Shown here: piece by piece, positions 4,267-5,880 of the stretch
Layout of the letters: the number at the start of each line of letters is the position of its first letter
Numbering within the stretch: position 1 is the stretch's first letter
DNA from: Escherichia coli
GTDB lineage: Bacteria; Pseudomonadota; Gammaproteobacteria; Enterobacterales; Enterobacteriaceae
DNA: 64,000 bases
Assembly (NCBI RefSeq): GCF_003019035.1
Contig: NZ_CP027447.1
Direction: 5' to 3' (one strand)
Made by a program: the position numbers and the translations under genes
Notes under the pieces: model-generated
The model's input: the letters and a program-made list of their open reading frames with translations, nothing else
What the model was told of the DNA's origin: nothing
Databases searched by the model: none

Positions 4267-5496
4267 ATGTACAAACAAGCTGTTATTCTCCTGCTGATGC
4301 TGTTTACCGCAAGCGTCAGTGCCGCATTACCTGCCCGTTATATGCAAACCATCGAAAATGCCGCGGTCTGGGCGCAAATTGGCGACAAGATGGTGACCGT
4401 GGGGAATATTCGGGCCGGGCAAATCATTGCCGTGGAGCCCACTGACGCAAGTTATTACGCATTTAATTTTGGCTTTGGTAAAGGGTTTATCGATAAAGGG
4501 CATCTCGAGCCGGTTCAGGGGCGACAAAAAGTTGAAGATGGTTTGGGTGACCTCAACAAGCCGCTGAGTAATCAGAACTTAATTACCTGGAAAGATACGC
4601 CGGTCTACAACGCGCCGAGTGCGGGCAGTGCGCCGTTTGGGGTACTGGCGGACAATTTGCGCTACCCAATTTTGCATAAACTGAAAGACAGGTTAAATCA
4701 AACCTGGTATCAGGTCCGTATTGGCGATCGACTGGCCTATATCAGTGCGCTGGATGCCCAACCCGATAATGGCCTGCCGGTGCTAACCTATCACCATATT
4801 CTGCGCGACGAAGAAAACACCCGTTTTCGCCATACTTCGACGACCACCTCGGTACGCGCTTTCAATAACCAGATGGCCTGGCTGCGCGACAGGGGATACG
4901 CGACACTGAGCATGGCGCAACTGGAAGGTTACGTGAAGAATAAGATCAACCTCCCTGCGCGAGCGGTGGTGATTACCTTTGATGATGGCCTAAAGTCGGT
5001 GAGCCGCTATGCGTATCCTGTGTTGAAACAATATGGTATGAAGGCGACGGCGTTTATTGTTACCTCGCGCATCAAACGTCACCCGCAGAAGTGGGACCCA
5101 AAATCGCTGCAATTTATGAGCGTTTCTGAACTTAACGAAATTCGCGATGTATTTGATTTCCAGTCACATACCCATTTTTTGCATCGGGTGGATGGTTATC
5201 GCCGACCCATATTACTGAGCCGTAGTGAGCACAATATTCTGTTTGATTTTGCACGTTCACGCCGCGCTCTGGCGCAATTTAATCCGCATGTCTGGTATCT
5301 TTCGTATCCGTTTGGCGGATTTAATGACAAAGCCGTGAAGGCAGCAAAAGAAGCCGGATTTCACCTGGCGGTGACAACCATGAAAGGCAAAGTAAAACCG
5401 GGGGATAATCCGTTGTTACTAAAACGACTTTATATCTTAAGAACGGATTCGCTGGAGACGATGTCGCGGCTGGTGAGTAACCAGCCGCAGGGATAA
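4267..5496 (+). CDS. yadE: polysaccharide deacetylase (NodB-homology) family protein with signal peptide
   Basis: 409-aa ORF with N-terminal signal peptide [19 protein letters not shown]; C-terminal half has NodB-like motifs (TFDDG, HTH). Confidence 0.9.
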
Positions 5497-5499
5497 CAA

Positions 5500-5880
5500 T
5501 CAGGCAACCTGTACCGGAATCGCTTTCGCGGTACGTTTCATTTCATTGTCGCCTTCAAAATAGGCGACGTTGGGCCGCCAGGTGCGAGCTTCTTCATCTG
5601 GCATGGTAACGAAGCTGGCGATGATGATAATATCGCCGACGCTGGCGCAGTGGGCCGCCGCACCGTTAACAGAAATAATTCTCGAACCGCGTTCTGCCGC
5701 GATGGCATAAGTGGAGAAACGCTTGCCGTTGGTGACATTCCAGATATCAATGGCTTCGTTTTCGAGAATACCAGCTGCGTCAAGAAAATCCTGGTCAATG
5801 GCGCAAGAACCTTCATAGTGCAGGTCCGCATGAGTCACTTTCACGCGGTGGAGTTTGCCCTGCAGCATCGTGCGAATCAT
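5500..5880 (-). CDS. panD: aspartate 1-decarboxylase proenzyme
   Basis: 126-aa [33 protein letters not shown]...; self-cleavage site Gly24-Ser25 (YEGSC) present. Confidence 0.96.

What the first reader, a model, noticed from the sequence alone, without database searches (positions are those of the whole stretch)
5494..5502. Convergent yadE and panD stop codons separated by only 3 bp
yadE (+) ends at 5496 and panD (-) ends at 5500, leaving no room for terminators. The two transcripts must overlap at their 3' ends, creating potential for antisense interference between a gene of unknown function and pantothenate biosynthesis.
Basis: seen in the sequence. Interest (0 to 1): 0.15.

Follow-up and report, generated by a model that had tools for sequence, protein, structure and literature searches.

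The report
panD mRNA ends inside yadE
The two E. coli genes really do stop 3 bases apart, but published RNA-end maps already show that the panD message ends at a conserved hairpin inside the last codons of yadE, which is an ordinary, already catalogued kind of transcript overlap.

Summary
yadE (+) stops at 5494-5496 and panD (-) stops at 5502-5500, with 3 nt (CAA) between them. K-12 MG1655 is annotated the same way, and the junction is present in 5423 of 5426 complete E. coli genomes.

"No room for terminators" holds only for the spacer. A 9-10 bp GC-rich stem-loop with no U-tract (window 5466-5488) lies inside yadE codons 401-407. Published Term-seq (three conditions) and SMRT-Cappable-seq both place the panD mRNA 3' end 4-5 nt past this hairpin (MG1655 146275/6 = window 5461/2). 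That gives panD a 39-nt 3' UTR, 36 nt of it antisense to yadE. Published bicyclomycin data show a Rho termination region about 480 nt further on.

Across Enterobacteriaceae:
- The stop-to-stop gap is 1-6 nt in 48 of 63 sequences and the two genes never overlap.
- The hairpin shows compensatory substitutions, and synonymous diversity is the lowest in all of yadE.
- The hairpin survives yadE loss.

No conserved yadE terminator lies inside panD. No yadE transcript or 3' end is listed in the tables I could search.

The pair is already listed as a convergent "excludon" (NAR 2025). Regulatory interference has not been tested. Verdict: real, explained, already known, low interest.

The parts
4267..5496 (+). 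yadE coding sequence (409 aa; periplasmic polysaccharide-deacetylase family, function unknown); stop TAA at 5494-5496
5497..5499 (.). 3-nt spacer (CAA) between the two stop codons
   Evidence: The equivalent gap is 1-6 nt in 48 of 63 Enterobacteriaceae sequences.
5500..5880 (-). panD coding sequence (126 aa, aspartate 1-decarboxylase proenzyme); stop TGA at 5502-5500
5465..5489 (-). Stem-loop of the panD 3' UTR, embedded in yadE codons 401-407 (R-L-V-S-N-Q-P). In panD-sense RNA it reads U-GCGGCUGGU-UACUC-ACCAGCCGC-G: a 9 bp core at 5488..5466 plus a U.G closing pair. No U-tract follows it.
   Evidence: Folding energy is -18.5 kcal/mol, z -4.5, and 0 of 200 shuffles fold as well. 98.5% of cells are paired across 60 distinct sequences, 3 pairs have compensatory changes, and 0 of 500 shuffles reach this. 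It is kept after yadE loss in L004, L012 and L042.
5461..5462 (-). Mapped 3' end of panD mRNA (MG1655 146275/146276), 4-5 nt past the stem
   Evidence: Published Term-seq shows 125366, 41034 and 68010 reads in the three conditions. The published SMRT-Cappable-seq 3' end is at 146276. The offset, window = MG1655 - 140814, was checked on sequence.
5461..5499 (-). panD 3' UTR (39 nt); positions 5461-5496 are antisense to the last 11 codons plus stop of yadE
   Evidence: Derived
5440..5493 (+). yadE codons 392-409, the stretch with the lowest synonymous diversity in the whole gene. This indicates a constraint at the nucleotide level.
   Evidence: the 17-codon windows starting at codons 392 and 393 rank 1-2 of 393, at 0.26 against a gene mean of 0.47; the hairpin codons score 0.26, and only 2.7% of 7-codon windows are as low.
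4925..5074 (-). Zone with C above G in the panD-sense read-through RNA, around the published Rho termination region (MG1655 145798 = window 4984), antisense to yadE
   Evidence: Published DirectRNA-seq with and without bicyclomycin gives a Rho score of 7.18, p = 8e-27. The C/G ratio is 1.2-1.6 here and 1.4-1.7 in the first 150 nt after the panD stop.
5940..5975 (-). panD promoter-like site (TAGACA, 17-nt spacer, AATACT, at 5975..5947) and transcription start at 5940 (MG1655 146754)
   Evidence: Promoter scan, sequence and the SMRT-Cappable-seq start site at 146754
5510..5547 (+). Weak hairpin plus a U-rich tail (UUUCAUUUCAUU) just after the yadE stop, inside the last ~15 codons of panD. It is a possible weak yadE terminator in E. 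coli but is not conserved.
   Evidence: The 67-nt stretch 5494-5560 containing it folds at -14.5 kcal/mol, z -2.2. Pairing is 86% in species with adjacent yadE and 81% in species without it, with no covariation. The 3' codons of panD show no drop in synonymous diversity.

Best explanation
panD is transcribed as a monocistronic mRNA of about 479 nt from a start site at window 5940. The 3-nt spacer holds no terminator. RNA polymerase runs past the panD stop into yadE on the antisense strand and transcribes a stable stem-loop without a U-tract, encoded by yadE codons 401-407. Transcription then continues into untranslated RNA with C above G, where Rho terminates it within about 0.5 kb. This step is inferred from published bicyclomycin data.

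3'-to-5' exonucleases then trim the tail back to the hairpin. This step is inferred by analogy with the Dar & Sorek 2018 model. The result is the sharp steady-state 3' end at window 5461/5462.

The same 23 nt therefore do two jobs. They encode the C-terminal tail of YadE, and they form the 3'-end-defining and stabilising hairpin of panD mRNA. That dual use explains the compensatory substitutions and the suppressed synonymous change.

The overlap is one-sided. No yadE transcript or 3' end is listed in the published tables that could be searched, and yadE has no conserved terminator inside panD. Any antisense effect would therefore fall mainly on yadE.
For: SHOWN by published data:
- Term-seq finds the dominant panD 3' end at 146275, 146275 and 146276 (- strand) in LB OD 0.4, LB OD 2.0 and M63 (methods).
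- An independent full-length read set gives a panD transcript 146754..146276, monocistronic b0131, in both tables.
- A Rho termination region lies at 145798 (- strand), antisense to yadE. Read counts upstream/downstream are 214/27 untreated and 412/373 with bicyclomycin.

SHOWN here:
- The hairpin folds at -18.5 kcal/mol, z -4.5, and is not followed by a U-tract. The terminator scan finds no - strand site downstream of the panD stop.
- 98.5% of cells are paired, and 3 of 10 pairs have double-sided changes (0 of 500 shuffles). These include the fully synonymous Pro CCG/Arg CGG to CCT/AGG and Gln CAG/Leu CTG to CAA/TTA.
- The combination Asn-AAT with Val (an A.C mismatch) is never seen in 60 sequences.
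- The last 17 codons of yadE have the lowest synonymous diversity in the gene.
- In all 18 yadE-less species and the 6 with yadE displaced, a strong hairpin follows the panD stop within a few tens of nt. Three yadE-loss lineages (L004, L012, L042) keep the GCGGC...GCCGC hairpin.
- The embedded hairpin averages -17.0 kcal/mol when it is the first hairpin after panD (n=48). It averages -12.3 and -12.8 when another hairpin or an insertion intervenes (n=9 and n=6).
- C/G is 1.4-1.7 just downstream of the panD stop.

The general model is published: precise 3' ends just after stable stem-loops that lack U-tracts, rut sites downstream, and trimming by PNPase and RNase II.
Against: - Nobody has tested Rho or exonuclease dependence at this 3' end at nucleotide resolution. 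The Rho score uses 800-nt windows, and its peak lies 477 nt downstream. It could in principle reflect a separate antisense transcript starting inside yadE.
- The C-over-G enrichment is modest.
- The hairpin is also kept, with compensatory changes, in Kluyvera, Kosakonia and Phytobacter, where a second intergenic hairpin or a 309-nt spacer precedes it. It may therefore have an additional role.
- The apparent strand preference (33 G.U in the panD sense against 8 in the yadE sense) is confounded. In 4 of 5 G-C pairs only the panD-sense wobble change is synonymous in yadE, and pair 13-27 points the other way.
- The differences in hairpin stability between contexts rest on few independent lineages.
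Confidence: 0.72

Rival explanations
1. The embedded hairpin is itself a non-canonical intrinsic terminator without a U-tract. It releases most polymerases at window 5461, and Rho only mops up the leak.
For: The 3' end is sharp and lies 4-5 nt after a stable GC-rich stem in three conditions. Full-length single-molecule reads end at the same place. Dar & Sorek allow for inefficient intrinsic termination backed up by Rho.
Against: The 12 nt after the stem (GACAUCGUCUCC) contain only 3 U, so the defining U-tract is absent. The consensus scan does not call it a terminator. Bicyclomycin raises downstream coverage from 27 to 373 reads. Steady-state 3' ends cannot tell termination from trimming.
Confidence: 0.15
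2. This is a functional excludon. Convergent transcription and the duplex of at least 36 bp make yadE and panD expression mutually exclusive, through polymerase collisions and RNase III cleavage. YadE would thereby be coupled to pantothenate and CoA synthesis.
For: The pair is in the published E. coli excludome, detected in at least 50% of 58 RNA-seq samples. The panD 3' UTR is perfectly complementary to the last 36 nt of the yadE message. The tight junction is conserved across genera.
Against: With a 3-nt gap, any 3' UTR scores as an overlap, so listing in the excludome is nearly automatic. No yadE 3' end or yadE-containing transcript is listed in the Term-seq tables or the held SMRT-Cappable-seq tables, so panD meets little opposing transcription in the conditions studied. 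The 3' codons of panD carry no nucleotide-level constraint, and the yadE-side hairpin is not conserved. No anticorrelated expression, double-stranded RNA or RNase III data for this pair could be retrieved. Several lineages put a hairpin or whole genes between the two genes.
Confidence: 0.15
3. The palindrome is a by-product of selection on the YadE C-terminal peptide (SRL[V/I]SNQPQG) and preferred codons. The panD 3' end forms there only because a hairpin happens to be available.
For: The peptide is almost invariant. CTG, CAG and CCG are preferred E. coli codons (own knowledge). The hairpin persists where yadE is far from panD.
Against: Double synonymous compensatory changes are not expected from selection on the protein. 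The rare Arg codon CGG is kept in nearly every sequence. Synonymous diversity is the lowest in the gene. The hairpin is retained, and even lengthened by a U-A to C-G change, after yadE was deleted in L012 and L042. It is weaker where it is not the first hairpin after panD.
Confidence: 0.05
4. The hairpin acts in the yadE-sense RNA or at the DNA level, for example as a ribosome pause before the stop codon, a protein-binding palindrome, or a roadblock.
For: The sequence is a perfect palindrome and folds just as well in the yadE sense, at -20.5 kcal/mol. Seven C.A cells at pair 13-27 are wobble pairs only in the yadE sense.
Against: In the yadE sense the stem ends 5 nt before the stop codon. Translating ribosomes would melt it, and trimming back to it would remove the stop. 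Overall the yadE-sense structure has 34 unpaired cells against 9 in the panD sense (with the confounding noted above). There is no Rfam match. The only experimentally mapped RNA end next to it is on the panD strand.
Confidence: 0.05

Closest known systems
Rho-dependent transcripts with protective 3' stem-loops (Dar & Sorek 2018, NAR, PMC6061677)
   Same: The steady-state 3' end is precise and lies a few nt after a stable GC-rich stem-loop with no U-tract. C modestly exceeds G downstream, and bicyclomycin-sensitive read-through occurs further on.
   Different: Here the stem-loop lies inside the coding sequence of the convergent neighbour and is co-constrained with its last codons. Trimming by PNPase or RNase II has not been shown for this transcript.
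Convergent excludons (concept from Listeria; E. coli catalogue in ExcludonFinder, NAR 2025, PMC12288877)
   Same: These are convergent neighbours whose transcription units overlap. This exact pair, and the neighbouring rpnC-panC pair, are in the published list.
   Different: Mutually exclusive expression, double-stranded RNA and RNase III processing have not been shown for this pair. The overlap is documented from one side only, and only 36 nt of it is in the stable mRNA.
Bidirectional intrinsic terminators between convergent genes, for example can-hpt in this same window (about 1164-1199)
   Same: One palindromic hairpin sits at the meeting point of two convergent genes.
   Different: The can-hpt hairpin lies in a 40-nt spacer, is flanked by A and T runs, and has mapped 3' ends on both strands at 142003(+) and 141973(-). 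The yadE-panD hairpin has no U-tracts, lies inside one coding sequence, and has a mapped end on one strand only.
Antiparallel overlapping genes
   Same: Stop codons of convergent genes are almost in contact.
   Different: The coding sequences do not overlap here or in any of the 63 sequences examined. The gap is always at least 1 nt, except in rare stop-loss variants of yadE.

Membership tests
Rho-dependent terminator with protective 3' stem-loop | Precise steady-state 3' end immediately downstream of an energetically stable stem-loop | tested here: met
   The published 3' end at 146275/6 equals window 5461/2, which is 4-5 nt after a stem of -18.5 kcal/mol.
Rho-dependent terminator with protective 3' stem-loop | No U-rich tract after the stem | tested here: met
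   The sequence after the stem is GACAUCGUCUCC, with 3 U in 12 nt. The terminator scan does not call it.
Rho-dependent terminator with protective 3' stem-loop | Read-through downstream increases when Rho is inhibited | tested here: met
   The published Rho termination region at 145798 (- strand) has a Rho score of 7.18, p = 8e-27. Resolution is 800-nt windows, so the link to panD read-through is an inference.
Rho-dependent terminator with protective 3' stem-loop | C-rich, G-poor (rut-like) RNA downstream of the stem | tested here: inconclusive
   C/G is 1.4-1.7 in the first 150 nt and 1.2-1.6 at 5074-4925. This is modest, and no genome-wide background was computed.
Rho-dependent terminator with protective 3' stem-loop | Longer 3' tails accumulate in pnp or rnb mutants | not testable with these tools
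   The supplementary tables of Dar & Sorek are not held.
Intrinsic (Rho-independent) terminator | GC-rich stem-loop followed at once by a 7-8 nt U-tract | tested here: not met
   The stem is present and the U-tract is absent.
Bidirectional intrinsic terminator | Hairpin flanked by an A-tract upstream and a U-tract downstream, with 3' ends on both strands | tested here: not met
   There are no flanking A or T runs. Only a - strand 3' end is listed in the Term-seq tables. The can-hpt pair is a contrast.
Convergent excludon | Transcripts of convergent neighbours overlap | tested here: met
   The panD mRNA 3' end lies 35 nt inside yadE, and the pair is listed in the excludome. The yadE-side transcript is not documented.
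Convergent excludon | Expression of one gene represses the other (mutually exclusive expression) | not tested
   No expression data for the pair could be retrieved. The supplements of the excludon paper are not held.
Convergent excludon | Double-stranded RNA formation and RNase III processing in the overlap | not testable with these tools
   This needs p19 or J2 capture of double-stranded RNA, or data from an rnc mutant.
Overlapping (antiparallel) genes | Coding sequences share nucleotides | tested here: not met
   The gap is 3 nt here and at least 1 nt in all 63 sequences.

The most novel reading that the evidence does not exclude
The last nine or so codons of yadE are a true dual-function sequence, kept by selection as the panD mRNA 3' hairpin. 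The abundant, constitutive panD mRNA and its Rho-limited read-through act as a built-in antisense silencer of yadE. This could work through RNase III cleavage of the 36-bp duplex, which would remove the yadE stop codon, or through polymerase collisions. YadE would then be made only when panD transcription is low. That would be an asymmetric excludon conserved across Enterobacteriaceae.
Probability: 0.12. Interest if true: 0.4.

Novelty: already known. Interest (0 to 1): 0.15.

Why it matters
It matters little beyond careful annotation. The case illustrates a general point: a missing intergenic terminator does not mean a missing 3'-end signal, because the signal can sit inside the neighbour's coding sequence and constrain its codons.

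There is a practical consequence. Deleting, recoding or tagging the C-terminus of yadE, as in Keio-type knockouts, C-terminal fusions or genome recoding, would remove or alter the panD mRNA 3' hairpin. That could change PanD levels, beta-alanine and CoA supply, and it would be a polar effect on a gene on the opposite strand.

If the asymmetric antisense idea were true, it would give a conserved and simple model excludon in E. coli.

Tried and rejected
- The first literature search matched 'pandemic' and was useless. The whole-word search worked.
- An Rfam scan of 3500-8500 at E<=1 gave only two chance snoRNA-like hits.
- Supplements of Dar & Sorek 2018 and of the ExcludonFinder paper are not held. 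Ju et al. 2019 (SEnd-seq) is not held.
- The SMRT-Cappable-seq supplements had no gene names. Searching b-numbers worked for b0131 and found nothing for b0130. One of those files was cut when stored.
- A yadE terminator embedded in panD (+ strand 5510-5547) was considered. It is rejected as a conserved element, because it shows no covariation, similar pairing with or without adjacent yadE, and no drop in synonymous diversity.
- Strand assignment of the hairpin from G.U against C.A counts was rejected as decisive once I mapped stem positions to codon positions. Coding constraints bias which wobble can arise.
- A homologue search for YadE, meant to show whether the C-terminal tail is a lineage-specific extension into the panD hairpin, returned only close Enterobacteriaceae relatives among the 120 listed. 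It did not answer that question.
- No genome-wide statistic for convergent gaps was computed. Only the six pairs in the surrounding 50 kb were examined.

Full report
**1. Observation**

The window is E. coli chromosome. It is 100% identical over 2 kb to strain SCU-301 and about 97.4% identical to K-12-type strains (RP437).

- yadE occupies 4267..5496 on the + strand and ends with TAA at 5494-5496.
- panD occupies 5880..5500 on the - strand and ends with TGA, read as TCA at 5500-5502 on the + strand.
- Three bases, CAA, lie between the stops.
- Pfam confirms both genes.
- RefSeq annotation gives the same boundaries in SCU-301 and in MG1655, where yadE is 145081..146310 and panD is 146314..146694.
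- The 91-bp junction is present in 5423 of 5426 complete E. coli genomes.
- The six convergent gene pairs in the surrounding 50 kb have gaps of 53, 46, 34, 95, 3 and 40 nt, so this pair is the outlier.

**2. What the literature already holds**

Only one paper in the library names both genes. It is ExcludonFinder (NAR 2025, PMC12288877), which lists yadE-panD and the neighbouring rpnC-panC among 165 convergent excludons of MG1655. These were called from RNA-seq coverage in at least 50% of 58 samples. With a 3-nt gap, almost any 3' UTR would be scored as an overlap.

More informative is the Term-seq table of Adams et al. 2021 (eLife, PMC7815308).
- It lists a dominant 3' end classed 'primary: panD, antisense: yadE' at 146275, 146275 and 146276 (- strand) in its three condition tabs. 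Read counts are 125366, 41034 and 68010, similar to the neighbouring can terminator (methods).
- The printed flanking sequence fixes the end at the U of GACAU.
- The offset, window = MG1655 - 140814, was checked on two loci. It puts the end at window 5461/5462.

SMRT-Cappable-seq (Yan et al. 2018, PMC6131387) independently lists a full-length monocistronic panD transcript, 146754..146276, in two tables.
- Its start at window 5940 lies 7 nt after a promoter-like -10 box, TAGACA-17-AATACT at 5975..5947.
- The same tables list yadGH and yadGHI units, but none that contains b0130 (yadE). One of the held files was cut when stored.
- The Term-seq tables have no yadE primary 3' end either.

The bicyclomycin data of Adams et al. 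give a Rho termination region at 145798 (- strand), which is window 4984, antisense to yadE. Upstream/downstream read counts are 214/27 untreated and 412/373 treated, for a Rho score of 7.18.

**3. Anatomy**

Between the panD stop and the mapped 3' end lies a perfect 9-bp GC-rich inverted repeat at window 5466-5488.
- In the panD sense it reads GCGGCUGGU-UACUC-ACCAGCCGC, with a U.G closing pair.
- It folds at -18.5 kcal/mol, z -4.5, and none of 200 shuffles folds as well.
- It starts 11 nt after the panD stop and is followed by GACAUCGUCUCC, so there is no U-tract. The terminator scan does not call it.
- On the other strand the same bases are yadE codons 401-407 (R L V S N Q P), five nt before the yadE stop.

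The panD 3' UTR is therefore 39 nt long, and 36 nt of it are antisense to yadE.

**4. Comparative evidence**

A scan with PanD returned 80 species-level loci from Enterobacteriaceae. yadE lies convergent to panD in 62 of them.

The stop-to-stop gaps, counting the window as a 63rd sequence, are as follows:

| Gap (nt) | Sequences |
|---|---|
| 1 | 5 |
| 2 | 5 |
| 3 | 16 |
| 4 | 4 |
| 5 | 9 |
| 6 | 9 |
| 32-35 | 8 |
| 61 | 1 |
| 309 or more | 6 |

- The coding sequences never overlap.
- The 32-35 nt gaps occur in Kluyvera, K. pneumoniae, one Raoultella and one Enterobacter.
- The 32-35 nt and 61 nt gaps each hold an extra palindromic intergenic hairpin.

I aligned the sequences at the yadE stop (A1: 63 sequences, 60 distinct) and scored the stem.
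- 98.5% of cells are paired.
- Three of ten pairs change on both sides, a level that 0 of 500 shuffles reach. Sliding the partner by 1-3 columns gives at most 60% pairing.
- Two of the compensatory events are fully synonymous in yadE: Pro CCG/Arg CGG to CCT/AGG in L069 and L070, and Gln CAG/Leu CTG to CAA/TTA in L029 and L030.
- At pair 16-24, the combinations Asn-AAC/Val, Asn-AAT/Ile and Asn-AAC/Ile occur 15, 24 and 21 times. The unpaired combination Asn-AAT/Val never occurs.

Synonymous diversity supports the same conclusion.
- It is lowest in the whole of yadE over its last 17 codons, at 0.26 against a mean of 0.47. These are ranks 1-2 of 393 windows.
- The hairpin codons alone are matched or beaten by only 2.7% of 7-codon windows.

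What follows panD in the other species is also informative.
- In all 18 species without yadE, a strong hairpin follows the panD stop within about 10-25 nt. Several of these are canonical terminators with T-runs.
- In two lineages that lost yadE but kept yadI (L012, L042), and in one with an internal yadE deletion (L004), the GCGGC...GCCGC hairpin remains. In L012 it even carries a U-A to C-G change.
- The embedded hairpin averages -17.0 kcal/mol when it is the first hairpin after panD (n=48). It averages -12.3 with an intergenic hairpin in front (n=9) and -12.8 when yadE is at least 300 nt away (n=6).

Together these results tie the element to panD rather than to the YadE peptide.

**5. The yadE side**

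A hairpin followed by UUUCAUUUCAUU lies just after the yadE stop, at + strand 5510-5547, inside the last codons of panD. The 67-nt stretch 5494-5560 containing it folds at -14.5 kcal/mol, z -2.2.
- It is not conserved. Pairing is 86% in species with adjacent yadE and 81% in species without it, and the mismatches are not compensated.
- The 3' codons of panD show ordinary synonymous diversity, at ranks 43-68 of about 118 windows.
- The antisense-panD RNA is not richer in C than in G.

Where yadE transcripts end is therefore unknown.

**6. Mechanism**

The data fit the published model for Rho-dependent transcripts (Dar & Sorek 2018). In that model, termination is diffuse and occurs downstream. 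PNPase and RNase II trim the transcript back to a stable stem-loop without a U-tract, and that stem-loop defines and protects the 3' end. C exceeds G just downstream of the stem-loop.

- Shown: the position of the 3' end, the hairpin, its conservation, and bicyclomycin-sensitive read-through further downstream.
- Inferred: that the read-through originates from panD, and that trimming rather than hairpin-induced release makes the end.
- Rivals: a terminator without a U-tract, a functional excludon, a coding by-product, and a yadE-sense or DNA-level role. These are weighed in the rival section of this report.

My strand test gave 33 G.U pairs in the panD sense against 8 in the yadE sense. It is confounded by codon position and is not used as evidence.

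**7. Verdict**

The inference that the transcription units overlap is right, and it was already published. The statement that there is no room for a terminator misses the embedded hairpin. Antisense interference with pantothenate synthesis is untested. The only documented overlap comes from panD mRNA, and no yadE transcript was found in the tables searched, so such interference is unlikely to affect panD much.

The comparative evidence that yadE's last codons are co-constrained by the panD 3' hairpin is, as far as I could find, not described elsewhere. It is an instance of a known kind of element.

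Noticed in passing
window 5497-6033 (+ strand frame continuing from yadE): The frame after the yadE stop stays open for about 179 codons, antisense through all of panD. 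Protein clusters of 586-591 aa from E. coli (P0002, P0003 with 39 members, P0005) are YadE with the stop codon replaced by Gly, Ser or Gln and then reading ...[11 protein letters not shown]... through panD. A 481-aa Citrobacter freundii protein (P0022) is also extended past ...NQPQG. These stop-loss variants create a full antisense coding overlap.
   Followed up: partly
L084 (E. coli TB354, NZ_AP038814.1) 3058-3837; equivalent to window 5497-5502: An IS1A element is inserted between the yadE and panD stops in one of 5426 genomes. This separates panD from its embedded hairpin and is a natural test of the hairpin's role.
   Followed up: partly
L068 4382-4416, L030 4382-4416, L051, L054, L029, L041, L045, L048, L070: In Kluyvera, K. 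pneumoniae and a few others, a 32-61 nt spacer between the stops holds an additional strong palindromic hairpin (for example CGACGCUGCGC-UCAG-GCGCAGCGUCG). These lineages therefore have two hairpins in tandem after panD. The embedded one is weaker there but still shows compensatory changes, which is not fully explained.
   Followed up: partly
L053 4441-5677, L057 4476-4978 (also L055, L056, L063): In Raoultella and relatives, 0.8-2.5 kb of extra genes in the same orientation as yadE lie between yadE and panD. By eye they look like an Hcp-like protein, a possible effector and small membrane (immunity-like) ORFs. No family search was run on them.
   Followed up: no
window about 6154-7480 (rpnC, extra ORF 7155-7388, panC 3' end): rpnC-panC is also a published 'excludon'. 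A strong Rho termination region (MG1655 147624, - strand, Rho score 16.9) lies antisense to rpnC, downstream of panC. SMRT-Cappable-seq puts the panBC 3' end at 147906, in the spacer. In this strain RpnC has 310 aa and carries a run of QEVR-type repeats, against 300 aa for the MG1655 coding sequence. A separate 77-aa ORF (7155-7388) looks like a duplicate of the RpnC C-terminus.
   Followed up: no
window 1164-1199: The can-hpt convergent pair (40-nt gap) has a textbook bidirectional terminator, GCCGGAUG-UGUUG-CAUCCGGC flanked by A and T runs. Published 3' ends map on both strands, at MG1655 142003(+) and 141973/4(-). It is a useful contrast to yadE-panD.
   Followed up: partly
window 4204-4266 (yadI-yadE spacer): An AT-rich hairpin (CGCTTTT-GCTACAAT-AAAAGCG) followed by TTGTTT lies after yadI. 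This is consistent with the published yadGHI transcripts that stop before yadE. A TACAAT in its loop could be a -10 box for yadE.
   Followed up: no
search result, /: 61 of the matching places are on records labelled as plasmids (for example NZ_OZ392440.1, 127 kb, carrying panD, part of yadE and an rpn gene). These may be chromosomal fragments labelled as plasmids or real mobilised copies.
   Followed up: no
PMC12288877, section 24: [quoted passage not shown] Nothing I found supports a shared pathway. YadE is described elsewhere as a periplasmic deacetylase-family protein of unknown function (PMC12440217).
   Followed up: partly
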